From a virus, in IMG/VR virus record IMGVR_UViG_3300047585_000133, positions 32,001 to 96,000 of that record: a DNA stretch of 64,000 nucleotides; one strand, 5' to 3'. This document shows, in pieces, positions 3,479 to 54,717 of this stretch (position 1 is its first letter; each line of letters starts with the position of its first letter). Below the pieces are notes generated by a model. It saw only the letters and a list, made by a program, of their open reading frames with translations, was not told the DNA's origin and searched no databases. The position numbers and the translations under genes are program-made.

Positions 3479-3481
3479 CGA

Positions 3482-3987: not shown

Positions 3988-3990
3988 CAC

Positions 3991-4063
3991 GGGGAAGTAG
4001 CTCAGCTGGAAGAGCACCCGCCCTGCAAGCGGGATGTCAGGGATTCGAGTTCCCTCTTCTCCA
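3991..4063 (+). tRNA. tRNA-Ala(TGC)
   Basis: Loop CCTGCAA, G3:U70. Confidence 0.9.
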
Positions 4064-4114
4064 CGTCGGCCTCTGGAATCCCCGGGAGAATGATCTCCCG
4101 CCATGCCGGCTCCA

Positions 4115-4188
4115 CGGGATATTGCGTAGTGGTAGCGCGCCTGGTTTGGGACCAGGCGGCTGGGGTTCGATTCCCTGTATCCCGACCA
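4115..4188 (+). tRNA. tRNA-Pro(TGG)
   Basis: Loop TTTGGGA, encoded CCA. Confidence 0.93.
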
Positions 4189-4281
4189 GTCGCCTGGAGC
4201 TGGCTCAAGCTCCCTGGTTTCCCCCGAGCAGGGAGCTGGTCCCGGAAGCACCGGGAGGGCGGCGTTAAGTCCGGTACACGG

Positions 4282-4325
4282 CTGCGGCGCACGGGACATT
4301 CCGGTTCGACTCCGGATCGCCGCAG
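4282..4325 (+). ncRNA. acceptor+T minihelix lacking D and anticodon arms
   Basis: CTGCGGCG-10nt-TCCGGTTCGACTCCGGA-T-CGCCGCAG. Confidence 0.5.
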
Positions 4326-4434
4326 TGCAGTAGGCCGCGTTGCCCCTAGCAAGCGGGCGCCGAAAAACCGCCTGGAGCGGCAGTAGCTTGCAGGTGACCG
4401 GGACGCGATCGCGACGTGAGCCCGGCACCGTCAA

Positions 4435-4508
4435 CGGAGCGTAGCTCAACTTGGCAGAGCACTCGGCTGGGGGCCGAGCGGTTGCGCGTTCAAATCGCGC
4501 CACTCCGA
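4435..4508 (+). tRNA. tRNA-Pro(GGG)
   Basis: Loop CTGGGGG. Confidence 0.92.
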
Positions 4509-4584
4509 CGTGAGGGCCTAGGGCCGGGTAACCGGCTGGCGCGATATACGACCTAGGGAGCGGGAGCACTGGTACCCCGCATAT

Positions 4585-4659
4585 CTGGCTATGGCGCAGC
4601 TTGGCTAGCGCGCTGCCTTCGGGAGGCAGAGGTCCCCAGTTCAAATCTGGGTAGCCAGA
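4585..4659 (+). tRNA. tRNA-Pro(CGG)
   Basis: Loop TTCGGGA. Confidence 0.93.
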
Positions 4660-4711
4660 CGAGACCCAAAGGCCACGGGTCTGCTGGAACGCGGGTTCGC
4701 TACCTGCGTTG

Positions 4712-4818
4712 GATGCAAGGTGTAGGGCGCACAGGGGCGCGCGGACGCCCAGAGCCGGGGGAAACCCGGTAGCTGGGTGGTCACGGGCCTCGGGGCCGGG
4801 TTCAACTCCCGGGGCATC
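4712..4818 (+). ncRNA. multi-arm tRNA-like RNA
   Basis: GATGC/GCATC closing stem, T arm CCGGGTTCAACTCCCGG, no canonical anticodon arm. Confidence 0.4.
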
Positions 4819-4879
4819 GCTGGATCTCAAAGGCCCAAGTGAGGCGGAAGATAGGGCCACGCCCTGCCGGAGATCTTAT

Positions 4880-4953
4880 GGTCGCTTAGCTCAGTTGGAA
4901 CGAGCGCCTGATTGAAACCCAGGAGGACCCCCGTTCGGCTCGGGGAGTGACCA
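4880..4953 (+). tRNA. tRNA-Phe(GAA)
   Basis: Loop TTGAAAC. Confidence 0.88.
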
Positions 4954-5068
4954 CGGTGACGGAGTACTACGTCACTTGGGCCCTGTGGTAAGCGCACCAC
5001 AGGGAAAGCGGTTGGCAGGCTACGCCAGCTCCTCCGGGGGCGAGCCGGGTTCAAAACCCGGGACCGTG
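4952..5068 (+). ncRNA. multi-arm tRNA-like RNA
   Basis: CACGGT/ACCGTG closing stem, several hairpins, T arm CCGGGTTCAAAACCCGG. Confidence 0.4.
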
Positions 5069-5203
5069 CGATGCCGTGACCCTGTCGATCGCAGGATCAC
5101 CACGGCAGCCGGGAAAGAACTTTCCCGGCGCGAAGGTTGCCGGTAACCCCTGCGTTAAAGGGAGGCAGTTCCGTTGCAACGGACTGCCGTGGAACTGGAC
5201 CAT

Positions 5204-5274
5204 GCGGATGTCGTCCAACGGCAGGACAGCAGCCTTCCAAGCTGCTGATGCGGGTTCGAGTCCCGTCTTCCGCT
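5204..5274 (+). tRNA. tRNA-Gly(TCC)
   Basis: Loop CTTCCAA. Confidence 0.95.
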
Positions 5275-5471
5275 CTACGGCACGACGCCCCGCCTGGCTC
5301 CGCCCAAATGGTACCCAGGGGGATACGGCCGGGAGAGTAGCGCTCCTCCCGGTAAGCCGGCCTGTTGCAACGGGCCGGACTTCGTGCCGCCCGGGTGATC
5401 CTGCCGGAGCCCCTGTGAGCCCTGCCGCAAGCGGGGCAATACCAGGCTCCCCGGCGGGACTCCGGGACCCT

Positions 5472-5544
5472 GCGCCGCTAACTCAACTGGCAGAGTACCG
5501 TCCTCTTAAGTCGGGAGTTGGGGGTTCAAGTCCCTCGCGGCGCA
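5472..5544 (+). tRNA. tRNA-Lys(CTT)
   Basis: Loop CTCTTAA. Confidence 0.93.
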
Positions 5545-5622
5545 CTGAAGGAATGCTGAAGGCCAAACCCGGGGCTGGTGCCGACGAAGAGGCCTCCTGC
5601 CACCAGCAGCATTCCTTCTCAC

Positions 5623-5696
5623 GGGCAAGTAGCAGAACGGCATATGCGGCGGATTCAAGCTCCGCGCTCTTACGGGTTCGAATCCCGTCTTGCCTA
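5623..5696 (+). tRNA. tRNA-Leu(CAA), short variable arm
   Basis: Loop TTCAAGC. Confidence 0.88.
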
Positions 5697-5776
5697 CGTG
5701 CCGGGTCGCTCCCGGCGGAGCAGGGGATCGTGCACAGGACCCGTCCTGCCCAGTGGACCGGGGAAGTGCTCACCAT

Positions 5777-5848
5777 TGGAGTATGGCGTAATCGGCAGCG
5801 CGCCGGGTTCTGGTCCCGGCGGTCTAGGTTCGAGTCCTGGTACTCCAG
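5777..5848 (+). tRNA. tRNA-Gln(CTG)
   Basis: Loop TTCTGGT, U1-A72. Confidence 0.95.
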
Positions 5849-5916
5849 CGTGATCGTCGGAGTTTCGTTGGCAGGATCCCAGTCCTGCACCTGGGCAACT
5901 TCGCCGGCGGTCTTAT

Positions 5917-5989
5917 GCCCCTGTAGCTCAGACGGAAGAGCAGTGCACCCGTAATGCACAGGCCAGCGGTTCGAAGCCGCTCGGGGGCT
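5917..5989 (+). tRNA. tRNA-Thr(CGT)
   Basis: Loop CCCGTAA. Confidence 0.9.
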
Positions 5990-6189
5990 CGTAGTGCAAC
6001 ACCGGAGACCTCGGTCTCGCATGCACGTCCGGGTAGCGCAAGGTGGAACCGTCCGGCGGTTAGAAGGAGCGAGGTACAGGCGGGGCTCCCGCGACGGCTA
6101 GGGATGAGGCCGTCACCACGATCGTGATCCTGGTCAGGCCCAGGTGTGCGAGTGGCCATAGGCATGAGGGCCGCCGCCAGGATCACCAT

Positions 6190-6274
6190 GTCCGTGTGGC
6201 GAAATGGCATACGCGCCAGCTTGAGGTGCTGGTGCCCCGCGAGGGGTGTGAGGGTTCGAGTCCCTCTTCGGACA
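6190..6274 (+). tRNA. tRNA-Leu(GAG)
   Basis: Loop TTGAGGT, long variable arm. Confidence 0.95.
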
Positions 6275-6373
6275 CATGGTGGGAGATCCCGGTGACGGGC
6301 TAACCGGGGCGGATTGCGTCCAGCGGTCTGCTAGCTCAGGGCCGCTTCTGGACAGAAGAGCCCCACCTTACAC

Positions 6374-6444
6374 GCCTCTGGCTCCAACGAGCGGGCGTCC
6401 CCTGTACGGACACCAGCCCGGGGTGGCACCGGGTGGAGGCTCCA
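6374..6444 (+). tRNA. atypical tRNA-Thr(TGT)
   Basis: GCCTCTG/TGGAGGC+TCCA; mini D arm; loop CCTGTAC; degenerate T loop GGTGGCA. Confidence 0.6.
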
Positions 6445-6449
6445 TTCGA

Positions 6450-6520
6450 TCCGGGATCGTTTAACGGCAGGACGCGGTATTTTGAGTGCCGCTGTGTTGG
6501 TTCGAGTCCAGCTCCCGGAA
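6450..6520 (+). tRNA. tRNA-Gln(TTG)
   Basis: Loop TTTTGAG. Confidence 0.9.
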
Positions 6521-6532
6521 CGAAAGTCACAT

Positions 6533-6605
6533 GCCCGGATAGCTCAGTTGGCAGAGCATGCGCATGGTAAGCGCAAGGTCATCGGTTCAAATCCGTTTTC
6601 GGGCT
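6533..6605 (+). tRNA. tRNA-Thr(GGT)
   Basis: Loop ATGGTAA. Confidence 0.93.
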
Positions 6606-6617
6606 CGCATTAAATAT

Positions 6618-6689
6618 GTCGGCGTAACTCAGCGGTAGAGTGCGGCGTTGCCAACGCCGTTGTCGCGGGTCCGAATCCCGTCGCCGACT
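6618..6689 (+). tRNA. tRNA-Gly(GCC)
   Basis: Loop TTGCCAA. Confidence 0.93.
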
Positions 6690-6911
6690 CTATGGGGTAC
6701 CAGATCTCTGCTGGCCCAAAGCCCGAGCCATGGCACAGAGCATCCTCCGAGGCCGGACGCGGCCGACGGGGACCCCATTTCAGGCAGGTACAGGATCAGT
6801 ATGGTCTGGCAAAGCGGCGGAAGTCGCCATTCTCCGGAGAACGCAACCTGACCTGACTCCCTATCCGACTCCCGGGACGGATCCAGACAAGGGGGATAAG
6901 TCCCGGGGCAT

Positions 6912-6983
6912 GCGACCGTAGTGTCAAAGGCAGCACACGACCTTCCCAAGGTCGGTGAGCCGGTTCGAATCCGGTCGGTCGCT
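6912..6983 (+). tRNA. tRNA-Gly(CCC)
   Basis: Loop TTCCCAA. Confidence 0.93.
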
Positions 6984-7100
6984 CACCTGACACCAGCATC
7001 AGGCTCCGCGAGCCGCCTGCCCCAAGGTTTCCGGGCAGATGAGACTACGGTTGCCCAAAGGTATCTTCAAGCGGACTCCGGGCTGGCGGGGTCCGTCCAT

Positions 7101-7185
7101 GGGCGTGTGGTGGAACGGCAGACACGCTGGCCTCAGGTGCCAGTGGCCCGGAAGGGCCGTGAGGGTTCGAATCCCTCTTCGCTCA
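7101..7185 (+). tRNA. tRNA-Leu(CAG)
   Basis: Loop CTCAGGT, long variable arm. Confidence 0.95.
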
Positions 7186-7288
7186 CAAAGCCGCTGGCGA
7201 CGCGGCGGCCTGGCATGGCGGGATCAGCATTTCCAGGATGCCCGCCTGACCATTTACCCCAAGCCTGGACCCGGGGGAGCGTCGTAAT

Positions 7289-7373
7289 GGAGAGTGAACC
7301 GGACGGGCGTCCGGGCTTCGCTGCTAACGAATGCGCGCTGTGAAGGCGTGGGTTTCGAGTACTCCGCTCTCCG
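7289..7373 (+). tRNA. tRNA-Ser(GCT)
   Basis: Loop CTGCTAA, long variable arm, G73. Confidence 0.88.
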
Positions 7374-7806
7374 CTCGACGGGCTGTAAGGAACGGGTTGT
7401 TCCGGCCGGCAAGACGGGTTCGAGTCCCGTACAGTCCACGCGGGGTTCGATTCCCCGCTACGGGTGCTGCGACCCGTGCCAGGCTCCGGCCGCGAAGCGC
7501 TCCCAGGGGCGACCGCAGATTATGGAGAGGTCGCCTAGTCTGGCCTATGGCGCCGCGTCGGAAGCGCGGTCGGGGTAACCCTCGCGAGTTCGAATCTCGC
7601 CCTCTCTGCCACTCGCCGGCAGCCATGTCCAGAGTGAGCACCTCCTGCTGGCCGGGGGTCGTGAAGATGATCTCCACGCCGAACTCCCCGTGCTTGCCCT
7701 CCACCATGAAGAGGGCCCTCTTGATCATGGTCACCACAGGGAGCGCAGCCGCGTCTGGATTCTTCAGCCCCCGGACCGTCACGGTCACCTTTATCTCGCC
7801 TTCCAC
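7324..7806 (-). CDS. hypothetical protein antisense within the tRNA array (coding-like only over 7612-7806)
   Basis: First ~63 codons have phage-like GC3; the frame then runs antisense over tRNA-Ser. Confidence 0.45.
   Translation of the reverse strand: MEGEIKVTVTVRGLKNPDAAALPVVTMIKRALFMVEGKHGEFGVEIIFTTPGQQEVLTLDMAAGEWQRGRDSNSRGLPRPRFRRGAIGQTRRPLHNLRSPLGALRGRSLARVAAPVAGNRTPRGLYGTRTRLAGRNNPFLTARRAESGVLETHAFTARIR
7380..7438 (+). ncRNA. 59-nt Ala-identity mini-tRNA without anticodon (tmRNA TLD-like)
   Basis: GGGCTGT/ACAGTCC with G3:U, A73, perfect T arm ACGGGTTCGAGTCCCGT. Confidence 0.65.
7524..7611 (+). tRNA. tRNA-Ser(GGA)
   Basis: Loop TCGGAAG, encoded CCA. Confidence 0.9.
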
Positions 7807-7821
7807 CCCGGAAGGCTATCT

Positions 7822-7904
7822 GGCGAGGTCGCACAGTGGCCTAGTGCGCTTGCTTCGAAAGCAAGTGGGGGCGACCCCCGTGAGTTCGAATCTCACCCTC
7901 GCTG
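7822..7904 (+). tRNA. tRNA-Ser(CGA)
   Basis: Loop TTCGAAA. Confidence 0.93.
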
Positions 7905-7988
7905 CTCTGTCCCGGCCGCTCACTTCGCGTGCTTCGAGGTTTCGTGAGCCTCCCTCTTTTAGGTCGCACACGAGCCGGGACAGGTCAT

Positions 7989-8071
7989 GGCGGGGTCGCC
8001 TAGCGGCCTAGGGCGCCGGCTTTGAAACCCGGTGAGGGGAACCTCCGTGGGTTCGAATCCCACCTCCGCTG
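7989..8071 (+). tRNA. tRNA-Ser(TGA)
   Basis: Loop TTTGAAA, Ser-type D and variable arms. Confidence 0.9.
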
Positions 8072-8269
8072 CTAGACGCCCGTGCGGGTGCGCCTGGTGT
8101 TCCAGTTGCCCGCGCCCCAGCCGGACCCGAACCCGGCGGCGGCGAGCGCGAAGAAGGCGAGCCCGATGGCGATGATCCCGACGACGACGGTCAGCGAGAT
8201 GCTGTGGACGCCGACGATCGCGATGATCGCGGCGACGATGAAGGCGAGGACGGCAAGGCCGTAGGTCAT
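8072..8269 (-). CDS. small two-TM membrane protein
   Basis: AAGGAG RBS; two hydrophobic helices, basic tail. Confidence 0.8.
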   Translation of the reverse strand: MTYGLAVLAFIVAAIIAIVGVHSISLTVVVGIIAIGLAFFALAAAGFGSGWGAGNWNTRRTRTGV

Positions 8270-8328
8270 GACATGCTCCTTCTACTGGAGGAGCATGCGC
8301 TCCCCGGTGCTTCCGGGGCGCGCACCAC

Positions 8329-8402
8329 GGGCGTGTAACTCAGATGGTCAGAGTACTTCCCTGATAAGGAAGAAGGCGCTGGTTCAAGTCCAGCCTCGCC
8401 CA
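8329..8402 (+). tRNA. tRNA-Ile(GAT)
   Basis: Loop CTGATAA. Confidence 0.95.
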
Positions 8403-8472
8403 CCGGCACGCAGCGATCATCTGAGCCAGGACGTTCCGGAGACACGGCTGTACCGGGCGCTGCGAGCCTCAC

Positions 8473-8545
8473 GGCGGTGTAGCTCAGTCGGCAGAGCACC
8501 CGACTCATGATCGGGTTGCCGGTGGTTCGATCCCACCTACCGCTA
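8473..8545 (+). tRNA. tRNA-Met(CAT), elongator
   Basis: Loop CTCATGA. Confidence 0.9.
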
Positions 8546-8547
8546 CC

Positions 8548-8623
8548 GGGGGCGTATCCCCTCTGCCTTATAAGCAGTCGAAAGGGTAACCGGTGCAAGC
8601 GGGTTCAAGCCCCGCCGCCCCTA
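8548..8623 (+). tRNA. non-canonical tRNA-Ile(TAT)
   Basis: GGGGGCG/CGCCCCT acceptor, CTGC-CTTATAA-GCAG, normal T arm, no D arm in the usual place. Confidence 0.7.
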
Positions 8624-8624
8624 C

Positions 8625-8695
8625 GCCTCTCTAGCACAATGGAATGCAGCGGGCTTTTACCCCGTGGAGTCAGGGTTCAAGTCCCTGGGGAGGCA
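8625..8695 (+). tRNA. tRNA-Lys(TTT)
   Basis: Loop CTTTTAC. Confidence 0.92.
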
Positions 8696-8699
8696 CTGA

Positions 8700-8773
8700 G
8701 CGCCAGTAGCTCAGCGGAACAGAGCGGCTGGCTTCTATCCAGCTGGTCGGGGGTTCGATTCCCTCCTGGCGTA
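8700..8773 (+). tRNA. tRNA-Arg(TCT)
   Basis: Loop CTTCTAT. Confidence 0.93.
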
Positions 8774-8857
8774 CGTGAACGGCCGCGCTTAAAGACGGCC
8801 CCGTGGACCCGCAGCTAGCGGCGGGGACTCAGAGACTCGTCGGTCAAGCAGTCCTAT

Positions 8858-8929
8858 GGTCCTATCGTCTAGCGGTCAGGACGGCTGCTTCTCAGGCAGC
8901 TGACGCGGGTTCGACTCCCGCTGGGACTA
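8858..8929 (+). tRNA. tRNA-Glu(CTC)
   Basis: Loop TTCTCAG. Confidence 0.95.
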
Positions 8930-9109
8930 CGAACACGGGTAAGCGCGCTTGGCCTTTACCGGACCGATCATCCGGGTAACGGCCTGGAGACCCTGAAGGG
9001 CGAAGCCTCGGCTATGAGGGCTTGTTATGATCCTCCTGTGAAGCAGGGAAATCGCCCTGGGACCGGCGGTACATGGCACGCCCGGGGACCCGCCTGCAAC
9101 GCGCACCAA

Positions 9110-9181
9110 GCCCCCATCGTCTATTGGTTAAGATCGCGGCCTTTCAAGTCGCGGAACGGGGTTCGAATCCCCGTGGGGGAG
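9110..9181 (+). tRNA. tRNA-Glu(TTC)
   Basis: Loop CTTTCAA. Confidence 0.93.
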
Positions 9182-9212
9182 CAAGGCCGGGACTGTTATC
9201 CTGGTCGTGCGA

Positions 9213-9287
9213 CGCGGAGTGGGGAAGTTCGGTGTTCCCGCTGGCCTCATAAGCCAGAGATCGCTGGTTCAAATCCAGCCTCCGCTA
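9213..9287 (+). tRNA. tRNA-fMet(CAT)-like
   Basis: Loop CTCATAA, unpaired C1:U72. Confidence 0.85.
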
Positions 9288-9567
9288 CGAGAGAAGCAGG
9301 TGCTAGCGCTCTTACGTCCGGACGTACTGGGGGCCTGTTCGCTAGCACCGGACCGTGACCGGCTGCCCGGCCGGCTCTCGCAACGGGCAGGCCCATCCGG
9401 ATGGCAGTACGGGTGTCAGCAGACCCCCTCGCGCTGCGGGCCGAAGCGGGGGACCAGAATCTTCTAGTGCGAGGAGAAATCATGCGAGAAAAAGACCCGG
9501 CTCCGTGCGGCGCCTGCGGGCAGGTACACGACGGGCCGTGCCCTGGCCAGGGCGGCTGAACGAACGA

Positions 9568-9641
9568 TCTCCGGTAGCTCAATCGGCAGCAGCAGCGTCC
9601 TGTTAAGGCGATGGTTCCAGGTTCGAGTCCTGGTCGGAGAG
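9568..9641 (+). tRNA. tRNA-Asn(GTT)
   Basis: Loop CTGTTAA. Confidence 0.92.
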
Positions 9642-9718
9642 CTGTGCGGTCCTGCCCGCGCCGACACCACCCGGGATGCACGGGGAGGGAAGCACCCGGC
9701 GGGGTGCAGCAGGATCAT

Positions 9719-9792
9719 GGTTGTGCAGAGCAGACGGAGTGCTCGCCTCCCTGTCAAGGAGGAGATCACGGGTTCGAGTCCCGTCACGACCG
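9719..9792 (+). tRNA. tRNA-Asp(GTC)
   Basis: Loop CTGTCAA. Confidence 0.93.
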
Positions 9793-10006
9793 CTGAGGGG
9801 AAGGTCATTACCGGGCGGCAGGACACCTTCCCCTTCAGTCCAGCCCGGCGCGGCGCCGGAGTTCGCGGTGGGCAACCTGGCTGACGTTCAGGATGGCGCG
9901 CCAGCCGCCGTACCACTTGCCGACGGCAAGTCCGACAAGTAGACCGACGACCAGGCCTGCGAGGAACATACCTTCAACGGTACCTCCGGCCGAAGTGCCT
10001 GACTAC

Positions 10007-10081
10007 GGGTGTTTAGCTCAGCGGGAGAGCGCTGTCTCGACAAGGCAGAGGCCGCAGGTTCGATCCCTGCACCACCCACCA
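10007..10081 (+). tRNA. tRNA-Val(GAC)
   Basis: Loop TCGACAA, encoded CCA. Confidence 0.92.
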
Positions 10082-10209
10082 GCAGCATGGGCTCTACCCG
10101 GTGATCTCCAGGGGCCGGCAGTTTCGTTCTAGACTCCGGGGCGGCTGGCGGAAGGTCCGAAGGCGGTAATCCTGGTTAAGCCGCCCGAATAGCCCATGCT
10201 GCTGTACAT

Positions 10210-10283
10210 GCCCTCATAGCTCAGCGGACAAGAGCGGCGCGCTACGGACGCGCAGGACGGGAGTTCGAGTCTCTCTGGGGGTA
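10210..10283 (+). tRNA. tRNA-Arg(ACG)
   Basis: Loop CTACGGA. Confidence 0.95.
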
Positions 10284-10450
10284 CGCGAAGGTGGTGTAAG
10301 AGGCCGGCTCCGGCCGGGTCCGTGCGCACGGGCCCGGCCGGACAGGGGACCTCAAACGGAAGGAGGCGGAACCATGGATAACCGCGCTCCGGACAGCACT
10401 CCCCGGTTCCACCCGGGGCAGTCCTGGCAGAATCCAGGCCTTCGTGCCAC

Positions 10451-10522
10451 GGGCAATTAGCTCAGCGGGAGAGCGCTTCGTTCACACCGAAGAAGTCGGC
10501 GGTTCGAGTCCGTCATTGCCTA
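10451..10522 (+). tRNA. tRNA-Val(CAC)
   Basis: Loop TTCACAC. Confidence 0.95.
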
Positions 10523-10524
10523 CC

Positions 10525-10600
10525 GGGTCGTGATCCATATGGCTGAGGAAACGGTTTGTGAGACCGTTATTGACGGGTTCGAATCCCGTACGACCCTCCA
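10525..10600 (+). tRNA. tRNA-His(GTG)
   Basis: Loop TTGTGAG, encoded CCA; G-1/C73 not evident. Confidence 0.82.
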
Positions 10601-10601
10601 T

Positions 10602-10686
10602 GGCAGGTTACTCAAGCGGCAACGAGGGCGGCCTGTAAAGCCGCTGGCCCAGTCCTGCGCTGGTTCGAGTCCAGCACCTGTCACCA
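10602..10686 (+). tRNA. tRNA-Tyr(GTA)
   Basis: Loop CTGTAAA, long variable arm, CCA. Confidence 0.95.
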
Positions 10687-10687
10687 T

Positions 10688-10761
10688 GCACCTGTAGCTC
10701 AGCGGACAGAGCGCCGGTTTCCGGAACCGGGTTGCCGGGGGTTCGAGTCCCTCCAGGTGCA
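10688..10761 (+). tRNA. tRNA-Arg(CCG)
   Basis: Loop TTCCGGA. Confidence 0.95.
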
Positions 10762-10915
10762 CGTGCATCCCCAGGGCCGCCGGCTAACCATTGGCCGGTT
10801 ACAACAGCCCCCTGCTCAGTCCTCATGGACATACATGGCCGGATGAAGGGAGTCCTGGTACCAGGCGGCACCTCCAAGTGCCCGGTACCGGCGGATAGGC
10901 CCGGGGATGCACCCT

Positions 10916-10987
10916 GACGGGATGGCCGAGCGGCTCAGGCACGCCCCTGCAAAGGGCGATACACGGGTTCGAATCCCGTTTCCGTCT
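10916..10987 (+). tRNA. tRNA-Cys(GCA)
   Basis: Loop CTGCAAA, U73. Confidence 0.95.
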
Positions 10988-11022
10988 CGGGGACCTGGTC
11001 CGGTGCACCGACGCAGATGCTA

Positions 11023-11095
11023 AGCCCGGTAGCTCAGCGGACAGAGCCGCCGTTTCCTAAACGGAAGACCGAGAGTTCGAATCTCTCCCGGGCCG
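11023..11095 (+). tRNA. tRNA-Arg(CCT)
   Basis: Loop TTCCTAA. Confidence 0.92.
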
Positions 11096-11135
11096 CCTGA
11101 ACGTGTTCCGCTGCTGAGCTGCGCCGGGAAGGGTC

Positions 11136-49642: not shown

Positions 49643-51916
49643 TCAGCCCCCGGCCGGGGTGTACTTCTCGTAGTCGGCCAGGTGACCGTCTTCCTCGGTC
49701 ACTCCCAGCCGGGCGCGCATCCCCACGTGCGGCGGATCCTGGTAGGCGCGGATCGACGGCCCGGACATCCATCCGCCCTTGCCGTCCTTCGCTTCCACTT
49801 CGGAGTCCGGCAGGTGGGCTTCGAGGACGAAGCCTTCGCCGCCGGACGACGCGGCTACTCCTTCCAGGGGCGCTTCGTCCACTGCGCGGGCGAGGGCGGC
49901 CATCTTCCTGACCCGGTCGGCCCGGCGGAACAGCGCGCCCTGCTTCGGCATGCCGCGCTTGCCTGCTTTCGGCATGGACCCGCGCTGCTCGTCGGACTCC
50001 GGCGGGCGCTGCGGGTCAGCGTCTTGCTCAGCCGTCTCGCCTTCCGGCGGGGCGTTGAGCGGGCCGCCCGTCTGGGCGTCCATCTCGTCGGCCATCTGCT
50101 GGTCCTCGGGGGTGGGCGCGAGGTCGGGCAGCGGGAGGGGGGAAGCGCCCATCCGGTCGATCATCATGGCCTGGCCCGCTACGGCCGGGGGCACGCCTTC
50201 CACCTGGGCGACCGGAGCGAAGTCGGCCATGAGGTCGGCGGGGACCGGCAGTCCCTGGTTGCGGAGTTCGACGAACGCCTGGCGGCGGGTACGGGCCTGG
50301 GCGATGATGTCGGCTACCGCCTCGTCCTGGGACCGTTCGCGTTCCTCGTCCAGCTCGATGCCGAGGCCCCGGGTCCGGGTGCGGGCGGAGATCGGGATGC
50401 CGCTGGCGCGAAGGGCCTCGGTGAACTGGCGGGTGGTGTCCTCGTCCCGGAAGTTCAGCACCTGGCAGGTCAGGTCGGGCACCAGGAGTTTCGGCTGCTC
50501 GGTGATGCGCTTCTCGCCGGTCTCCTCGTCGGTTTCGAGGACTTCCTCCATGATCACGAAGCGGCGGCCGTTGCGTTCCTCGTAGTCGTAGTGCTCCTGT
50601 GCTTCGGCGACGATGAGCATCCGCTGCCTGATGTGCCGCTTCAGCATCTTCTGGTAGCTGGTCATCAGCTGCTCGACCAGCTGCTTGTTGAGGGCGTCGG
50701 CGGCGTAGGTCTGGCCTTCTCCGGCTCCGGTGAGGAATGTGCGCGAAAGTCCGAAAACTTGCAGGACGCGGTCTTCGATGCGTTCGAAGTCCATGCTCAG
50801 GTCGGGCATGTTCTCCCGGCCGAAGACGGACTCCAGCTCGACGGCGAAGTTGTGGATCAGCACCCGGAAGTCCCCGGCGAGGGCGGCGTCCATGGCCATC
50901 TCGAAGTTTTCGAGGTCGTCGTCGGTGGGGATCCACGGGACCGACGTGCCGAGGTCGGTGGCGCTGGCACCGAGTTTGGCCAGCAGCAGCGGGGTGTAGA
51001 GCCGGTCGGCGATCGAGTCCAGGGCGGTGTTGAGCATCTCCTGCTGGAGCATCGAGCGCATCGCCCGGGTCAGCAGCGGCAGCCCTCTCAGGTTGAAGGT
51101 GTCGCCCTTGAACTTGAGCTGCCGCAGCAGGATGTTGCTGACCGGCATGAAAGCGTTCTCGGCCGTGTAGGCGGCCAGCTCCGGGTACTCCTGGACGAGC
51201 TTGTTATATTCCCAGGCGGGCTGGCGGGTGGTGAGGATCTGCCGGATCGTCCACGGCAGCCGGGTGAAGTACCGGGGTTCCTTCAGGAACGGGCTGCGCT
51301 CGACCTTGATGTCGTCGGAGTTGAGCAGCTCCTCGTCGTCCCAGATTCCCAGGTCCTCGTTGAAGGTGGCGAACGGCCACGCCTCGCCCGTGATGTAGTA
51401 CTCGCGGCCGATGTCGACGAGGAATTCCGAGTAGTCCAGGCCGTCGTCGCCGAAGAACAGGTCCTCGTAGAACTCCGTCAGCCGCTGGTCTTTGCATTCG
51501 AGCTTGGCGCCGACAACAGGGAACTTGGAGAAGATGTCGATGCAGGAGCCGACGATCGGGTCCGTCTGGTAAAGGAGTCGGCAAAAGGCTCTGACCTTAG
51601 CCAGTTCCTCGTTCTGGCTGAAGTCGTAGGGAAGGTTGTTCTGGCGCCAGTAGAAGAGCGGGTCTCTGGGCCTGCCTGTAGCAAACTGGATGTCGCTGAA
51701 CCCCGACCCGCCGGCTCCGCCCGTCGAGTAGCCCGTACGGCGGCCGACCGAGGCGGTACGTGCGTTGGCCCGGCGGTTCTTACGGGCCTCCAGCACTTCG
51801 GGGGACATCTGCTCGGCGGAGGCCGCCCCGATGCCCATGGTGCGGCCGAGCTGACGGGCGACCGAAGCCTGCCGTGCAGCACCCGACCCCGGCTGGTACG
51901 CGACCCTCATCCGCAA
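49643..51916 (-). CDS. portal protein
   Basis: CRLLYQTDPIVGSCIDIFSKFP, GREYY..GEA, A.DSIADRLYTP..LAKLG. Confidence 0.85.
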   Translation of the reverse strand: MRMRVAYQPGSGAARQASVARQLGRTMGIGAASAEQMSPEVLEARKNRRANARTASVGRRTGYSTGGAGGSGFSDIQFATGRPRDPLFYWRQNNLPYDFSQNEELAKVRAFCRLLYQTDPIVGSCIDIFSKFPVVGAKLECKDQRLTEFYEDLFFGDDGLDYSEFLVDIGREYYITGEAWPFATFNEDLGIWDDEELLNSDDIKVERSPFLKEPRYFTRLPWTIRQILTTRQPAWEYNKLVQEYPELAAYTAENAFMPVSNILLRQLKFKGDTFNLRGLPLLTRAMRSMLQQEMLNTALDSIADRLYTPLLLAKLGASATDLGTSVPWIPTDDDLENFEMAMDAALAGDFRVLIHNFAVELESVFGRENMPDLSMDFERIEDRVLQVFGLSRTFLTGAGEGQTYAADALNKQLVEQLMTSYQKMLKRHIRQRMLIVAEAQEHYDYEERNGRRFVIMEEVLETDEETGEKRITEQPKLLVPDLTCQVLNFRDEDTTRQFTEALRASGIPISARTRTRGLGIELDEERERSQDEAVADIIAQARTRRQAFVELRNQGLPVPADLMADFAPVAQVEGVPPAVAGQAMMIDRMGASPLPLPDLAPTPEDQQMADEMDAQTGGPLNAPPEGETAEQDADPQRPPESDEQRGSMPKAGKRGMPKQGALFRRADRVRKMAALARAVDEAPLEGVAASSGGEGFVLEAHLPDSEVEAKDGKGGWMSGPSIRAYQDPPHVGMRARLGVTEEDGHLADYEKYTPAGG

Positions 51917-51958: not shown

Positions 51959-52327
51959 TCAGAAGCGTCTCGGCCAGGTTCCGTCGTTCTCGGAACCGGG
52001 CGTCATCTGCTCCTGCATAGAGCGGAGAACGTGCGGCTGCCGCATAGCGGCTACGGCACGTTCTCCTACGTCGTCGTCTCCGGGGCCGAGCCCGACGCTG
52101 AGCGAGCGCATGTTCGCAGGATCGCTGTTGTGAAGAACCCGCAACTTCCACTGACCTTCATCGTGGTTGTACGGAGTGATCACCGTGTGCCCGGTCTCAA
52201 GGTGGGCGATGCCCAGGCCGTCGCTGCGCGAGGTGATCCCGTTGCGCTCAAGTGACGGACGGGCGCGTTCCCATCGCTGCTCGTCTTCCGAAGCCGCCCT
52301 TTTCCGCAGCAGGTCGGAGATGCCCAT
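51959..52327 (-). CDS. hypothetical protein (paralog of 52514-52879)
   Basis: ETGHT...H...SV.LG...M.EQM. Confidence 0.7.
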   Translation of the reverse strand: MGISDLLRKRAASEDEQRWERARPSLERNGITSRSDGLGIAHLETGHTVITPYNHDEGQWKLRVLHNSDPANMRSLSVGLGPGDDDVGERAVAAMRQPHVLRSMQEQMTPGSENDGTWPRRF

Positions 52328-52521
52328 CAGTCCTCCCCGGGGTCGCCGGACTCCAGGATCATCCAGGCCAGCGCCCGCCACTCCTGCCAGGTGGCAATCG
52401 GGGACAAGATGATCCACTTCTTGCAGCGGCTGTCCTCGGTGAACTGCGGCTGGCCCTCAGGATCGGCCAGCCGCCGTGCGCCGGGCTCGCCGGTAACGGT
52501 CAGCCTCCCGCTGTTACTCAT
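52327..52521 (-). CDS. hypothetical protein
   Basis: Coupled ORF. Confidence 0.55.
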   Translation of the reverse strand: MSNSGRLTVTGEPGARRLADPEGQPQFTEDSRCKKWIILSPIATWQEWRALAWMILESGDPGED

Positions 52522-52879
52522 CGCCGTACGGTCCGTTCATCTGCTCGTGCATCCGGTTCATTACGTTCCGGTCGTTGAGGTGCTTCACCAGGTTGGGAAA
52601 CCACTGGCGCGGGTCGTGCCCGAGCGGCACGGACATGGGGTAGCCGGCGTTGCGGTGCTGAATGACGACCTGCGGGCCTTTTACATCGTCAGGGCCGAAA
52701 GCGCCGGGATCGGTCACGGGAAGCAGCGTGTGGCCGGTTTCCATCCGGACGCTGTGCGGCCCGTTGGGAGTGAATGCCGAGGCGAGCTGCTGCCGGAAAG
52801 CGACGTTGTTCCCGTAGTCTTCCAGACTCTGACCGGAGTGCCGCTCCGGGCTGGTGAAGTGGTAGTCGTTGTATCCCAT
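52514..52879 (-). CDS. hypothetical protein (paralog of 51959-52327)
   Basis: GGAGG RBS; shared motif. Confidence 0.7.
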   Translation of the reverse strand: MGYNDYHFTSPERHSGQSLEDYGNNVAFRQQLASAFTPNGPHSVRMETGHTLLPVTDPGAFGPDDVKGPQVVIQHRNAGYPMSVPLGHDPRQWFPNLVKHLNDRNVMNRMHEQMNGPYGDE

Positions 52880-53364
52880 CAGCTCCTCCCGAACTCATCC
52901 CACGGGTCAGTCTCGTCCGGCTCCGGCGGCGGCCACTGGTGACTGACGTCCTCGTGAGCATGCGGCACCGCGACGTGCTCGTGCCGGGGGACCGAGTGCT
53001 CAGCATCATGATGACGGGGCAGGACGTTAGCTGCTTCCGGCCACTCCGTCGCCTCGCGCACCTCGTCGGCACTCCACCCGTGATGGCTCATCATGTGCAG
53101 CGGCAGGACTTCGCGCGTATGCGGGTCGTAGTGGAGCATGCTCGTGACAACGTTCCAGCGGTTAGCAATAAATCCCGTATTGCTGGAGGCGTCCGGAGAC
53201 CCGTACCAGGGCTGGCTGTCGCGCTCGGCGTGCTCTTCCTCGTGCAGGCTCGTCAGGGTCCGCTGAGGGATCATGTGCGCCGTGCTCAGGCCGTGGTCGT
53301 CGCGCATGTGCTCCCGCAGCTCCGTCAGGCTTCTCAGCGGCCCGTGGGCGCTGCGGCGAAAGGG
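52879..53364 (-). CDS. His-rich module, probable -1 frameshift extension of the upstream gene
   Basis: Frame entered by slippage at C CCT TTC; two HxxxxHG modules. Confidence 0.6.
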   Translation of the reverse strand, partial: PFRRSAHGPLRSLTELREHMRDDHGLSTAHMIPQRTLTSLHEEEHAERDSQPWYGSPDASSNTGFIANRWNVVTSMLHYDPHTREVLPLHMMSHHGWSADEVREATEWPEAANVLPRHHDAEHSVPRHEHVAVPHAHEDVSHQWPPPEPDETDPWDEFGRS

Positions 53365-54542
53365 CGGCGGCTCGCGCTGCGGGAGGCGAACTTGCCGTAG
53401 AGAGAGCAGCCCGGCTGGTCGTGGTCCCCGGTCGTCGTGCACTCCAGGGCATGGTACTTGGGCCGGTCGGCGGTGTAGTCGTGGTAGCCGTCGTACCACT
53501 GCTTCGGCTCGCCCCGGGTGTCGGCCTTCTCCAGGGGACTCGGGCCGTAGTCGTAAACCCCGTTGACGGCCCGCTGGCCGGCGTTCCACCCGCGCTGGTA
53601 GTGGCCCCGTGCGGTCTTCTCCTCTTCGCCCCGGGCGGCCGTACGGCTCGCACTGTGGAACGGGGTGTCCCGGAACACCTGGTTCGGGGTATTCCACCAC
53701 TGGTTCGGCGACTCTCTTTCGGGCATGCCCTCGCCGCCCCGGTCCGGGGTGGTGGCGTGCACGAACGACCGGGCCGGGTCGCGGGCAAGCTGCCGCTCGG
53801 CTTCCTGGCGGGGGTCGCCGTCCTGGCCCAGGTGCATGAGGTGAATCTGGGAGGAGGCGGGGTGGGTGATCGTGCCGTACCAGTCGCGGCCTGTTCTGCC
53901 GATGGACACCTGGTGCCCGCTGGACAGCGTCCGGTAGGGCCGGGCATTCGCGGTCACCCGCTTCTTCGCTCCCTCGGCCCGCAGCCGGGCCATGACGCGG
54001 GGATCGGCGCCGGAGGCGGCGACGGCCATGTGCCGGACAAGCTGTTCCTCGTTCAGCTGCTGTCCTGCGGTACCCCGGTAACGGAGAGAAGACTTCTTCT
54101 TCGACTTGCCCTTCGGCGGGGGCGGCGGACCGCTATCGTCGTCGTCACCGGGCGGCGGCTCAGTGCCGCTGTCGTCGCCCGGTCCTTCAAACGGCCCGTC
54201 TCCCGGCTCGGAATCCCCGTGAGGCGGGCCGTCTCCATCCGCAGGGGCTCCGTCCGGGCCGACCATGCCGGGATCGACGAGGCCGCCGTCCGGGCCGACG
54301 TCGGAGGGAGCACCAGGACCCATCGGCATCTGGGGCATACCGGGAAAAGCGGGCTGAACCCGGACGATGTAGTTCTGGCCGCGTTAAACAGAAGTCACAC
54401 CCGATCGTCCCGTCAGACCGGCCGACTACCTGACCGCTTCCACAGAACGGGCTAAACAATGGCTGGTGACCAGAGGGTCGCCCGGATCGTGGGCTTCCTT
54501 GATCAGACCAGCCGTGCCAGCACGCAGGTTGCTTGACTTCAT
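53334..54542 (-). CDS. zinc-ribbon head-module protein (~398 aa) with two coding gaps (54451-54455, 54381-54387)
   Basis: Three frames join as MKSS...SHC|PFCGSGQVVGRSDGTIGCDFC|GQNYIVRVQPAFPGMPQ; AAGGGGG RBS. Confidence 0.75.
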
Positions 54543-54591
54543 TCGCATCACCCCCTTGAAACCGGGGCCGACTCGCGGCCAGATCATCCGT

Positions 54592-54717
54592 CTAGTTCTT
54601 CTGCGGCTGACCACTGACCTGGTCGCCAGACGGGGACGCCGGACTGCCTGACAGCGGGTCGCCCGGGTCATGGGCCGTCCTGGTGCCGATACCGCGCGGC
54701 CGGGTCATGGTGCTCAT
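54592..54717 (-). pseudogene. orphaned duplicate N-terminus of the zinc-ribbon gene
   Basis: MSTMTRPRGIGTRTAHDPGDPL duplicates AHDPGDPL at 54471-54494. Confidence 0.55.

What the first reader, a model, noticed from the sequence alone, without database searches (positions are those of the whole stretch)
54378..54461. Two successive TTA-triggered coding gaps (candidate double ribosomal hop) in a head-module zinc-ribbon gene
Seen: the minus strand reads CAT TGT [TTAGC] CCG TTC TGT GGA...TGT GAC TTC TGT [TTAACGC] GGC CAG AAC. Skipping the 5-nt (54451-54455) and 7-nt (54381-54387) gaps joins three frames into HCPFCGSGQVVGRSDGTIGCDFCGQNY, a clean CxxC-x14-CxxC ribbon on a ~398-aa protein. Both gaps share one grammar: Cys take-off codon TGT, then in-frame TTA, ending in xGC (AGC, CGC), which tRNA-Cys could re-pair at positions 2-3. 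Decoding the first TTA leads to a stop at 54426. Established: TTA is the rare codon read only by bldA tRNA in filamentous actinomycetes; T4 gene 60 is decoded by bypassing; I recall a single UUA-associated 10-nt gap in the Streptomyces phage phiHau3 terminase (verify). Inference: full-length protein is made only when UUA is hungry, an inverted bldA switch with two gates in series. Random assembly errors would be unlikely to give two AT-rich inserts with the same grammar.
Basis: partly seen in the sequence, partly recalled or inferred. Interest (0 to 1): 0.92.

Follow-up and report, generated by a model that had tools for sequence, protein, structure and literature searches.

The report
Two TTA-led ribosome-hop gaps in phage gene
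A conserved zinc-ribbon gene next to the portal gene of an uncultured soil phage is broken by two tiny inserts that each begin with the phage's rarest codon, TTA, and comparison with relatives suggests ribosomes hop over them, as proposed earlier for one Streptomyces phage terminase gene.

Summary
On the minus strand, a 398-codon gene (ATG 54542, stop 53334) carries 5 extra bases (54455-54451) and 7 extra bases (54387-54381). Each follows a TGT codon and begins with TTA.

- **Relatives:** 36 of 43 distinct relatives' alleles read straight through both places.
- **Not assembly errors:** an independent soil run holds both inserts unchanged, and a wetland run holds a sister allele with 5 bases at the second site.
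- **Other gapped alleles:** three further metagenome alleles have TTA-led gaps of other lengths (8 and 5, 5 and 5, 7) at the same two sites and at a third site.
- **Selection:** the 21 codons between the gaps differ between lineages by 10 synonymous and 2 non-synonymous codons.
- **Codon rarity:** TTA is the only sense codon absent from 27 long ORFs, and none of the phage's 39 tRNAs reads it.

The best reading, at confidence 0.6, is UUA-triggered translational bypassing of the phiHau3 terminase type (PMC10732093). The grammar matches what I read in phiHau3 DNA. The proposed bldA switch is untested, because the host is unknown.

New here are the gene, the phage lineage, the very short gaps of variable length, and their position at an intein homing hot spot. 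The scan has noted similar gaps on other DNA.

The parts
54551..54557 (-). Shine-Dalgarno-like AAGGGGG, 8 bases before the start codon
   Evidence: Read. Conserved together with the leader in L035.
54456..54542 (-). Coding segment A: 29 codons from ATG to the take-off codon TGT (Cys, first Cys of the first CxxC)
   Evidence: Ends in ..AHDPGDPLVTSHC, as in the homologues.
54451..54455 (-). Gap 1, 5 bases (TTAGC; equally parsed as TG[TTTAG]C inside the Cys codon). Begins with in-frame TTA; its last three bases, AGC, match the Cys codon at positions 2-3.
   Evidence: Absent from the 11 intact alleles in the alignment. Identical in L035; 8 bases in L021/L026/L051. Present in run X2.
54426..54428 (-). 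TAG stop reached in the zero frame if the first TTA is decoded as Leu (38-residue product)
   Evidence: ORF 54426..54671 frame.
54388..54450 (-). Coding segment B: 21 codons (PFCG...CDFC). Readable only after gap 1 is skipped. Ends in the second take-off codon TGT.
   Evidence: Against L021: 10 synonymous and 2 non-synonymous codon differences.
54381..54387 (-). Gap 2, 7 bases (TTAACGC; or TG[TTTAACG]C). Begins with in-frame TTA and ends in CGC.
   Evidence: Absent from intact alleles. 5 bases (TTAGC) in L035, L021/L051 and in the contig of run X3. Present unchanged in run X2.
53334..54380 (-). Coding segment C: 348 codons plus stop (GQNYIVRVQPAFPG..., Pro/Gly/Asp-rich linker, then a folded domain of unknown function)
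   Evidence: AlphaFold model of homologue P0004 has a confident domain at about residues 150-260. No Pfam or PHROG family.
54592..54717 (-). 41-codon remnant ORF. Its first 22 residues are the ordinary N-terminus of the family, ending AHDPGDPL (21 of 22 as in P0002). A decayed copy of the ribbon region follows.
54387..54612 (-). Mosaic block shared almost unchanged with metagenome allele L035. It covers the leader, start, segment A, gap 1 and segment B, and ends at gap 2.
   Evidence: 178 of 180 bases identical over 54566-54387. Identity is 10-16 of 30 per bin over 54763-54597 upstream, and falls to 12-20 of 30 from about 54266 downstream.
49643..51916 (-). Portal gene, same strand, 1.4 kb downstream (context for 'head module')
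   Evidence: phrog_2833, E 6.8e-144.

Best explanation
The gene encodes a 398-residue protein whose most conserved part is an N-terminal four-cysteine zinc ribbon. It carries two short non-coding gaps of 5 and 7 nt. Each gap sits directly after a UGU (Cys) codon and starts with UUA. This phage never uses UUA in its long genes and supplies no tRNA for it. I propose the following steps. When UUA enters the A site it is decoded slowly or not at all. The peptidyl-tRNA(Cys) leaves UGU, the mRNA slides 5 or 7 nt, and the tRNA re-pairs with the last triplet of the gap (AGC or CGC, two G:C pairs). Translation resumes at the next codon (CCG, then GGC), which restores the CPFC and CDFC knuckles. If UUA is decoded normally, the product ends after 38 residues. 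Shown: the gaps are real; they are homologous in position but variable in length among alleles; and the flanking coding segments are kept intact under purifying selection. Inferred: the hop itself, its trigger and its efficiency. Also inferred: the gaps ride on a small module that recombines between phage backbones. They sit on an intein homing hot spot, so they may persist because they spoil homing-endonuclease target sites, as the T4 gene 60 gap does for MobA.
For: (1) Colinearity. 36 of 43 distinct alleles and 71 of 83 proteins read through both sites without extra letters. The window's three frames joined at the gaps equal that sequence.

(2) Independent gapped alleles.
- L035: 5 nt and 5 nt.
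- L021/L026/L051, two different samples: 8 nt and 5 nt.
- L034, a different N-terminal lineage: 7 nt at a third site, GAU UUA .. GAC.
- All 7 instances start with in-frame UUA after the last conserved codon.
- All end in a triplet matching the take-off codon at positions 2-3 (AGC, AGC, GGC, CGC, AGC, AGC) or fully (GAC).

(3) Lengths. At site 2, window and L035 have nearly identical upstream flanks but need +1 (7 nt) and -1/+2 (5 nt). One single-base frameshift rule cannot serve both; skipping the gap can.

(4) No decay. None of the 4 gapped alleles has another stop or frameshift in segments A, B or C. Segment B differs by 10 synonymous and 2 non-synonymous codons between window and L021. Segment C differs by 17 and 0 between window and L035.

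(5) Codon and tRNA data. TTA occurs 0 times in 15,368 codons of 27 long ORFs, and TGT 7 against TGC 128. The 39 phage tRNAs include Cys(GCA) and Asp(GUC), but for Leu only CAA, GAG and CAG.

(6) Real DNA in three studies.

(7) Precedent. In phiHau3 terminase I read GGC-UUA..GGU and UCU-UUA..UCC, both 10-nt gaps. The paper reports full-length product in Streptomyces, and a junction peptide by mass spectrometry in E. coli with UAA in place of UUA (PMC10732093, sections 3.4-3.6).

(8) The internal ATG at 54338 has no purine-rich ribosome-binding site, whereas ATG 54542 has AAGGGGG.

(9) Mobile-element context. Inteins sit at SH|C (L025, and P0073 with a LAGLIDADG domain) and at PF|C (L065), flanking gap site 1. 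There is a 99%-identical block ending at gap 2. [quoted passage not shown]
Against: - There are no RNA, ribosome or protein data for this gene.
- The Cys-site landing triplets match only 2 of 3 positions, whereas both phiHau3 landing codons are fully cognate.
- No gap-specific RNA structure was found. Folds of 136-nt stretches of three gapped alleles are no better than shuffles (z -1.1, -0.3, +0.65), and the one shared hairpin is also in the intact allele L033.
- I saw no Shine-Dalgarno-like stimulator upstream of either gap.
- Two hops in series multiply their inefficiencies, so the yield could be very low.
- The purifying-selection argument weakens if the gaps arose recently and separately in each lineage, or if the module is spread by gene conversion faster than it decays.
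- The host, and hence the availability of tRNA-Leu(UAA), is unknown.
- L021 site 1 also reads U_UUA_AAG, a classical -1 slippery heptamer.
- The contig is 120 kb while relatives reach 160-166 kb, so a tRNA-Leu(UAA) gene could lie on a missing part.
Confidence: 0.6

Rival explanations
1. The N-terminal zinc ribbon is simply lost in these alleles. The inserts are scars or passengers of recombination or homing-endonuclease events. The gene is dead, or works from a downstream start without the ribbon. The segments look intact only because the damage is recent or is refreshed by gene conversion.
For: The locus is visibly rearranged: a remnant N-terminus lies upstream and a 99%-identical mosaic block ends at gap 2. 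Gene callers start several database homologues after or inside the ribbon: P0003, P0011, P0014, P0025, P0043, P0045, P0049, P0021 and P0078. Contig ends were not excluded for these, except P0049, which is the L021 allele. No expression data exist.
Against: The ribbon is the most conserved part of the family; positions 14-66 are almost all invariant in 40 sequences. Four gapped alleles from diverged backbones have no second lesion. Segment B shows 10 synonymous against 2 non-synonymous changes between gapped lineages. Every gap starts with in-frame TTA and ends in a take-off-like triplet, which scars would not be expected to do. The internal ATG 54338 lacks a ribosome-binding site.
Confidence: 0.17
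2. The frame is restored by ordinary programmed frameshifting at or next to UUA (-1 or +2 at 5- and 8-nt inserts, +1 at 7-nt inserts). The gap is translated, giving one to three extra residues.
For: A slow A-site codon also promotes frameshifting. L021 site 1 reads U_UUA_AAG, a canonical -1 heptamer. The phiHau3 authors could not at first exclude +1 events.
Against: Window and L035 share nearly identical upstream flanks at site 2, yet would need shifts of opposite sign. Extra residues would turn CPFC into CxxxC-CxxxxxC. No such spacing is seen in 36 of 36 intact alleles. The 'LG' in P0060 and P0021 is the only departure and may itself be a 6-nt gap. The other six instances contain no slippery heptamer, and no downstream structure stands out.
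Confidence: 0.08
3. The extra bases are removed or absent at another level: RNA processing or editing, or a minority of gap-free genomes in the phage population supplies the protein.
For: Only contigs could be laid, not raw reads, and contigs drop rare variants. No RNA run holds the stretch.
Against: No known bacterial or phage mechanism excises 5-8 nt from mRNA. The same gapped alleles were assembled as the consensus in three studies and in two further metagenome collections.
Confidence: 0.05
4. The hops form a regulatory gate. Full-length protein is made only while the host's tRNA-Leu(UAA) is scarce (bldA-like), so two gates in series tie head assembly to the host's developmental state.
For: This is the model published for phiHau3 (PMC10732093, introduction passages and the section 'Phage UUA...'). 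The phage lacks its own tRNA-Leu(UAA) although it carries 39 tRNAs. TTA is absent from long genes. The tail-tube gene of the same genome shows two more TTA-led frame breaks.
Against: The host is unknown. The nearest cultured relatives by portal infect Mycobacterium, Gordonia and Rhodococcus, for which I know of no bldA-type control (the latter point is recalled). The position of the gaps on an intein hot spot and on a mosaic module suggests a selfish or immunity origin rather than regulation. Most relatives do without the gaps (36 of 43 alleles).
Confidence: 0.2

Closest known systems
UUA-led coding gaps in the large terminase of Streptomyces phage phiHau3 (g6/g7/g8) and of the StrepC.1 and S. 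catenulae prophages (Smith et al. 2013, as cited in Antonov et al. 2023, PMC10732093)
   Same: A single conserved gene of a high-GC actinophage is split into three frames by two short blocks. Each block starts with an in-frame UUA right after the last conserved codon. Its last triplet resembles the take-off codon, and homologues are colinear across the junctions. I read GGC-UUA...GGU and UCU-UUA...UCC in phiHau3 DNA. The second phiHau3 gap and the window's gap 2 both begin TTAACG.
   Different: A different gene (a zinc-ribbon protein of unknown function, not terminase). A different phage lineage: 120-166 kb uncultured soil and peat phages with about 39 tRNAs and a cluster-C-like portal, not a 50-kb temperate Streptomyces phage. 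The gaps are 5-8 nt, not 7-10. Gap lengths include values of 2 mod 3, so they are not all '+1'. Cys landing triplets match at only 2 of 3 positions. Several alleles give a natural length series at the same site. The sites coincide with intein insertion points. There is no experimental evidence here.
Phage T4 gene 60 50-nt translational bypass with the MobA homing-endonuclease element
   Same: The peptidyl-tRNA leaves a take-off codon next to a poorly decoded A-site codon and lands downstream. The gap belongs to a mobile module, and in T4 it protects the DNA from the element's own nuclease. Here there is a mosaic module and an intein/LAGLIDADG hot spot.
   Different: T4 has a 50-nt gap with a take-off stem-loop, an internal SD, a nascent-peptide signal, matched GGA/GGA codons and a stop codon in the A site. 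None of these is seen here, where gaps are 5-8 nt, no structure stands out and a sense codon is in the A site. No endonuclease gene lies next to the window's gene: Pfam found nothing in the three upstream ORFs.
Low-level hops at hungry or stop codons in E. coli (+5/+6 hops: Weiss et al. 1987; Gallant and Lindsley), listed in the reference list of PMC10732093; the content is recalled
   Same: Very short forward hops of the P-site tRNA to a matching or near-matching triplet when the A site is slow.
   Different: Those are inefficient laboratory events in reporter genes. Here the hop would be needed for a conserved phage protein and would have to occur twice within 23 codons.
Translational jumping over 'byps' in Magnusiomyces capitatus mitochondria (Lang et al. 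2014, cited in PMC10732093; content recalled)
   Same: Many genes are interrupted by mobile, AT-rich inserts that ribosomes skip.
   Different: Byps are 27-55 nt with hairpins and occur in a mitochondrial system. Here the gaps are 5-8 nt without structure.

Membership tests
UUA-triggered short-gap translational bypassing (phiHau3 type) | In-frame UUA immediately 3' of the last codon shared with uninterrupted homologues | tested here: met
   Both window gaps and all 5 gap instances in L035, L021/L051 and L034. The same holds in phiHau3.
UUA-triggered short-gap translational bypassing (phiHau3 type) | A short block that breaks the frame of an otherwise colinear, conserved gene; the block is absent from homologues | tested here: met
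   Gaps of 5 and 7 nt. 36 of 43 distinct alleles are continuous; alignment.
UUA-triggered short-gap translational bypassing (phiHau3 type) | Junction residues so conserved that translating the block would be disruptive | tested here: met
   HCPFCG and CxFCG are invariant or nearly so in 40 aligned proteins. Spacing is unchanged in 36 of 36 intact alleles.
UUA-triggered short-gap translational bypassing (phiHau3 type) | Landing triplet cognate with the take-off codon | tested here: inconclusive
   The Asp site in L034 is fully matched (GAU to GAC). The six Cys-site instances match at positions 2-3 only (AGC, GGC, CGC). phiHau3 is fully matched at both sites.
UUA-triggered short-gap translational bypassing (phiHau3 type) | Stimulatory stem-loop and internal Shine-Dalgarno near the gap (proposed for phiHau3) | tested here: inconclusive
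   Folds are no better than shuffles, and the shared hairpin is also in an intact allele. No SD-like run was seen by eye upstream of the gaps. The supplementary figures of the paper were not seen.
UUA-triggered short-gap translational bypassing (phiHau3 type) | UUA rare and its tRNA limiting in the host | tested here: inconclusive
   TTA occurs 0 times in 15,368 codons of long ORFs, and there is no tRNA-Leu(UAA) among the 39 phage tRNAs. The host and its tRNA pool are unknown.
UUA-triggered short-gap translational bypassing (phiHau3 type) | Full-length product and a junction peptide without extra residues | not testable with these tools
   No proteomic or RNA data. No RNA run is listed as holding the stretch.
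T4 gene 60-type bypass cassette | About 50-nt gap with take-off hairpin, matched GGA codons, stop codon in the A site and adjacent MobA-type endonuclease | tested here: not met
   Gaps are 5-8 nt, the A-site codon is sense UUA, and no hairpin stands out. No endonuclease domain was found in the neighbouring ORFs.
Programmed -1 ribosomal frameshift | X_XXY_YYZ slippery heptamer plus a downstream structure, with the same shift direction in orthologous sites | tested here: not met
   Only L021 site 1 has U_UUA_AAG. The window sites read U_UUA_GCC and U_UUA_ACG. Site 2 needs opposite shifts in window and L035.
Sequencing or assembly artefact | Inserts absent from independent data | tested here: not met
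   Present in contigs of runs X2 and X3 from other studies, and in alleles from two other collections.

The most novel reading that the evidence does not exclude
The gaps are not regulatory devices. They are heritable 'immunity marks' carried on a roughly 225-bp module that recombines between phage backbones. Each is the smallest insert (T-TTA plus a copy of the split codon's own base or bases) that both destroys the target site of intein or homing endonucleases at the ribbon's cysteine codons and can still be hopped by the P-site tRNA. Large soil actinophages would then use an unreadable codon, UUA, as a general hop signal. This would allow selfish-element scars in essential, highly conserved genes, with two hops only 21 codons apart working efficiently enough for a virion-module protein.
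Probability: 0.3. Interest if true: 0.8.

Novelty: new member of a known kind. Interest (0 to 1): 0.6.

Why it matters
Programmed translational bypassing has few accepted natural cases. The UUA-triggered form rests on three terminase genes and on partial experiments; its authors say their data support it but do not prove it.

This locus adds:
- a different gene in a different, uncultured phage lineage;
- a natural allelic series (5/8 nt, 7/5 nt and a 7-nt third site) that argues against simple frameshifting;
- ready-made constructs for testing take-off and landing rules, including landing triplets matched at 2 of 3 positions and two hops 21 codons apart.

Its position between two intein insertion points and on a mosaic block links short-gap hopping to selfish-element conflict, as in T4 gene 60.

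For annotation, such genes are currently called as truncated ORFs. The database holds the window's gene as a 334-residue protein starting at MPQMP. In-frame 6-nt versions would pass unnoticed as two-residue insertions.

Tried and rejected
**Searches that found nothing**
- DNA search of the 1.4-kb gene region against 50,697 phage records, distant mode: no match.
- tblastn of the intact homologue P0006 against the same records: no match.
- Pfam and PHROGs on the gene's pieces, on P0006 and on neighbours: nothing except the portal, plus a sub-threshold Lar-like zinc-ribbon hit at E 0.037.
- Fold of homologue P0004: mean pLDDT 64.6, one confident domain. Foldseek against the PDB: 0 matches at E <= 0.001. 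VIA-align wide: best Z 5.3, within noise. The function stays unknown.

**RNA and reads**
- RNA folds of three gapped alleles and one intact allele showed no gap-specific structure.
- No RNA holder is listed for the stretch.
- Run X4 laid nothing.
- Only contigs could be laid, not raw reads, so minority gap-free variants could not be sought.

**Chance hits and redundant scans**
- Site-1 pattern scan of viral contigs: 6 of 7 stretches (L027-L032) were chance hits. I left them out of the allele census.
- Site-2 pattern: only the L021 contig.
- Genome-contig scan with the IVRVQPAFPG pattern: one hit in a Bacteroidales rumen MAG (L069). I took it as chance and did not examine it.

**Analyses I do not rely on**
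- A crude scan for frame switches at every TTA of the genome was contaminated by antisense frames and even missed the two known sites.
- The first rough codon table (112 ORFs, 11 TTA) contains spurious ORFs. I rely on the 27 long ORFs.

**Not obtainable**
- DNA of the N-terminally truncated or 'LG'-bearing database proteins (P0003, P0011, P0014, P0021, P0025, P0043, P0045, P0060, P0078) could not be fetched. Whether they are gapped is open. That P0060 and P0021 carry a 6-nt in-frame version of the site-3 gap is only an inference from the letters 'CDLGFC'.
- Supplementary tables and figures of PMC10732093 (gap sequences, structures) were not opened. I read the phiHau3 gaps from its GenBank record instead.
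- Bonocora et al. 2011 on MobA is known to me only through the Manning and Atkins preprint.

**Considered and rejected**
- Independent initiation of segment B at the TTG formed by the insert: no ribosome-binding site.
- A third recoding site at the gene's end (53334): no TTA, and homologues also end or fuse there variably.
Full report
**What is there.**
The window is part of a single 120,290-base contig of 67% G+C (window = bases 32001-96000). The contig carries 39 tRNA genes. It also carries a portal gene at 49643-51916 on the minus strand (phrog_2833, E 6.8e-144). The portal's nearest cultured relatives are large Mycobacterium, Gordonia and Rhodococcus myophages at about 39% identity. This is therefore an uncultured actinophage. 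The run that holds it completely is a peat metagenome.

The gene in question lies 1.4 kb upstream of the portal on the same strand. One search shows ATG at 54542 behind AAGGGGG, followed by:
- 29 codons ending in CAT TGT;
- TTAGC (54455-54451);
- 21 codons ending in TTC TGT;
- TTAACGC (54387-54381);
- 348 codons to the stop at 53334.

Read conventionally, the first frame stops at TAG 54428-54426. Gene callers keep only the last 334 codons, and the database holds the gene as P0001 starting at MPQMP.

**The inserts are extra relative to homologues.**
A protein search found 83 relatives. Of these, 71 carry an uninterrupted four-cysteine ribbon. Their sequence across both junctions is what the window gives when the 5 and 7 bases are left out. 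The 12 exceptions are:
- the window's own ORF;
- nine proteins that start after or inside the ribbon;
- one that starts in an unrelated N-terminal sequence that I did not analyse further (P0030);
- P0060, which, like the truncated P0021, reads CDLGFC.

At DNA level I collected 25 loci from viral contigs and 36 from metagenome contigs. Together with the window they give 43 distinct N-terminal sequences:
- 36 continuous;
- 4 with TTA-led gaps;
- 2 with inteins;
- 1 remnant, the window's own upstream copy.

The six chance hits L027-L032 were left out of this census. The alignment puts the window's extra bases exactly between TG and C of the first and fourth cysteine codons: TG[TTTAG]C and TG[TTTAACG]C.

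**They are real DNA.**
- Contigs of a soil run from another study cover 54221-54475 with one substitution and no gap.
- A wetland run has a contig over 54250-54489 with 22 substitutions. It keeps insert 1 and lacks two bases of insert 2.
- That second form is the allele also found as metagenome locus L035.
- The allele L021/L026 and its twin L051 come from two different samples and cover different flanks.

**The allelic series.**

| Allele | Site | Take-off codon | Gap | Length | Resume codon |
|---|---|---|---|---|---|
| Window | 1 | UGU | UUAGC | 5 nt | CCG |
| Window | 2 | UGU | UUAACGC | 7 nt | GGC |
| L035 | 1 | UGU | UUAGC | 5 nt | CCG |
| L035 | 2 | UGU | UUAGC | 5 nt | GGC |
| L021/L051 | 1 | UGU | UUAAAGGC | 8 nt | CCA |
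| L021/L051 | 2 | UGU | UUAGC | 5 nt | GGG |
| L034 | 3 (sites 1 and 2 intact) | GAU | UUAGGAC | 7 nt | UUU |

- L034 has an ordinary N-terminus and so belongs to a different lineage. Its gap sits in the Asp codon between the third and fourth cysteines, and its take-off and landing codons are perfectly matched.
- In all seven instances TTA is in frame right behind the last conserved codon.
- In all seven the following base is a purine, which gives UAG or UAA in the +1 frame.
- In all seven the last triplet of the gap matches the take-off codon at positions 2-3 (AGC, GGC, CGC) or fully (GAC).
- Put differently, each insert is T-TTA, zero to three further bases, and a copy of the base or bases that precede it in the split codon.

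**Are the segments still translated?**
None of the four gapped alleles has a further stop or frameshift in any segment. The 21 codons between the gaps can be read only if gap 1 is negotiated.
- Between window and L021 they differ at 10 codons synonymously and at 2 non-synonymously. Both amino-acid variants also occur in intact homologues.
- Between L035 and L021 the counts are 8 and 2.
- Downstream of gap 2, window and L035 differ at 17 of 37 codons, all synonymously.

This is what purifying selection in the shifted frames would give. The caveat is that part of the divergence may predate the gaps if they arose separately.

**Codon and tRNA context.**
- In 27 ORFs of at least 250 codons with a coding-type G+C pattern (15,368 codons), TTA is the only sense codon never used. 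TGT is the next rarest, at 7 against 128 TGC.
- The phage's tRNA set has Leu(CAA), Leu(GAG) and Leu(CAG) but no Leu(UAA). It does have Cys(GCA) and Asp(GUC).
- The contig may be incomplete, since relatives reach 160-166 kb.

**Mechanism.**
Single-base frameshifting does not fit. At site 2, window and L035 have nearly identical upstream flanks (178 of 180 bases). Yet they would need +1 and -1 respectively. Translating the gaps would also lengthen the CxxC knuckles, whose spacing never varies in the 36 intact alleles. Skipping the gap explains all seven instances with one rule.

I found no stimulatory RNA structure. Folds of 136-nt stretches have z-scores of -1.1, -0.3 and +0.65 against shuffles, and the one shared hairpin is also present in an intact allele. 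I saw no Shine-Dalgarno-like run upstream of the gaps. The internal ATG at 54338 has no ribosome-binding site, which argues against a ribbon-less product as the intended one.

**What is known.**
Antonov et al. 2023 (PMC10732093; I read sections 3.4, 3.5, 3.6 and the phage section of the discussion, plus passages of the introduction) report the following:
- The phiHau3 large-terminase gene is split by two 10-nt UUA-led blocks.
- Two prophage terminase genes are split by one block each; the paper gives 7 nt for the S. catenulae one.
- A full-length product was seen in Streptomyces.
- A junction peptide was found in E. coli after UUA was changed to UAA.
- The authors state that this supports but does not prove UUA-mediated bypassing.

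I read the phiHau3 record itself. It shows GGC UUA CUCCGGU | AAG and UCU UUA ACGGUCC | ACG. That is an in-frame UUA after the take-off codon and a fully cognate landing triplet at the end of each gap. The window's gaps follow the same grammar. The differences are shorter gaps, lengths that are not all congruent to +1, and only 2-of-3 matches at the Cys sites. Membership features are listed separately in the report. The biochemical ones could not be tested.

**Mobile-element context.**
- Homologues carry inteins at two places in the first knuckle. One lies before the first Cys: L025, and P0073 with a LAGLIDADG domain at E 1.3e-8. The other lies before the second Cys: L065. Gap site 1 lies between these two insertion points.
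- Window and L035 share a block of about 225 bases: leader, start codon, segment A, gap 1 and segment B. It is 178 of 180 identical over 54566-54387 and ends at gap 2. Upstream of it the two sequences are unrelated. Downstream, identity drops and seven consecutive codons differ synonymously.
- In the window a 41-codon remnant of the ordinary N-terminus lies just upstream (54717-54592). Its first 22 residues match the intact relative P0002 at 21 of 22.
- This looks like a small module that has moved between backbones.
- In T4, the gene 60 gap is part of the MobA element and protects the DNA from MobA (Manning and Atkins preprint, section read). By analogy, the TTA gaps may persist because they spoil endonuclease target sites. 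This is inference. No endonuclease gene lies next to the window's gene.

**Function of the protein.**
The function is unknown. There is no Pfam or PHROG family and no homologue in cultured phages. A model of the homologue P0004 has one confident domain at about residues 150-260, but no convincing structural match.

**Earlier notes of this scan.**
Searched after I had reached the reading above, the notes list many TTA-led gaps in other large high-GC soil phages. They also list two in the tail-tube gene of this same contig. I looked at that place and saw frame breaks at TAC TGT TTA and CAG TTT TTA, but did not analyse them with homologues. These notes are leads and do not count as evidence.

**Verdict.**
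The gaps are real, recurrent and embedded in coding segments that are kept intact. The most likely explanation, at confidence 0.6, is UUA-triggered hopping of the phiHau3 kind, here twice within 23 codons. The main rival, at 0.17, is that the ribbon is simply lost in these alleles. The regulatory 'bldA gate' is an untested add-on. This is a new member of a known but thinly documented kind. Its value lies in the natural allelic series and the link to intein homing sites.

Noticed in passing
window 54592-54717 (-): A 41-codon ORF repeats the family's ordinary N-terminus up to AHDPGDPL and then decays. The gene therefore has two N-termini in tandem, as if a module with its own start had been inserted.
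   Followed up: partly
window 54387-54612 versus L035: A mosaic block is about 99% identical between two otherwise diverged backbones and ends exactly at gap 2. In L035, seven consecutive codons right after gap 2 are changed synonymously, six of them to an A or T third base.
   Followed up: partly
L025 (about 2034-3100), L065, protein P0073: Two related inteins, one with a LAGLIDADG domain, are inserted before the first and before the second cysteine of the ribbon's first CxxC.
   Followed up: partly
proteins P0060 and P0021: These read CDLGFC where the family has CDFC. This would fit an in-frame 6-nt TTA-led insert at the same place as the 7-nt gap of L034. The DNA could not be fetched.
   Followed up: no
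   Followed up: partly
window 52879-53361 (-): The gene's stop at 53334 overlaps another frame that continues with a C-terminal domain (..LTELREHMRDDHG..). This domain is fused in frame in homologues such as P0006. There is no TTA here; it is probably a separate gene or a variable fusion point.
   Followed up: partly
window 2908-11097 (+): An array of 39 tRNA genes covers all 20 amino acids. It lacks Leu(UAA), Leu(UAG), Thr(UGU), Val(UAC) and Ser(GCU).
   Followed up: partly
   Followed up: no
window 51959-52879 (-): Two small genes between the zinc-ribbon gene and the portal share an ..ETGH.. motif with the central folded domain of the zinc-ribbon protein.
   Followed up: no
L021/L026 about 1655-1665: Gap 1 of this allele reads U_UUA_AAG, a classical -1 slippery heptamer, inside the 8-nt gap.
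   Followed up: no
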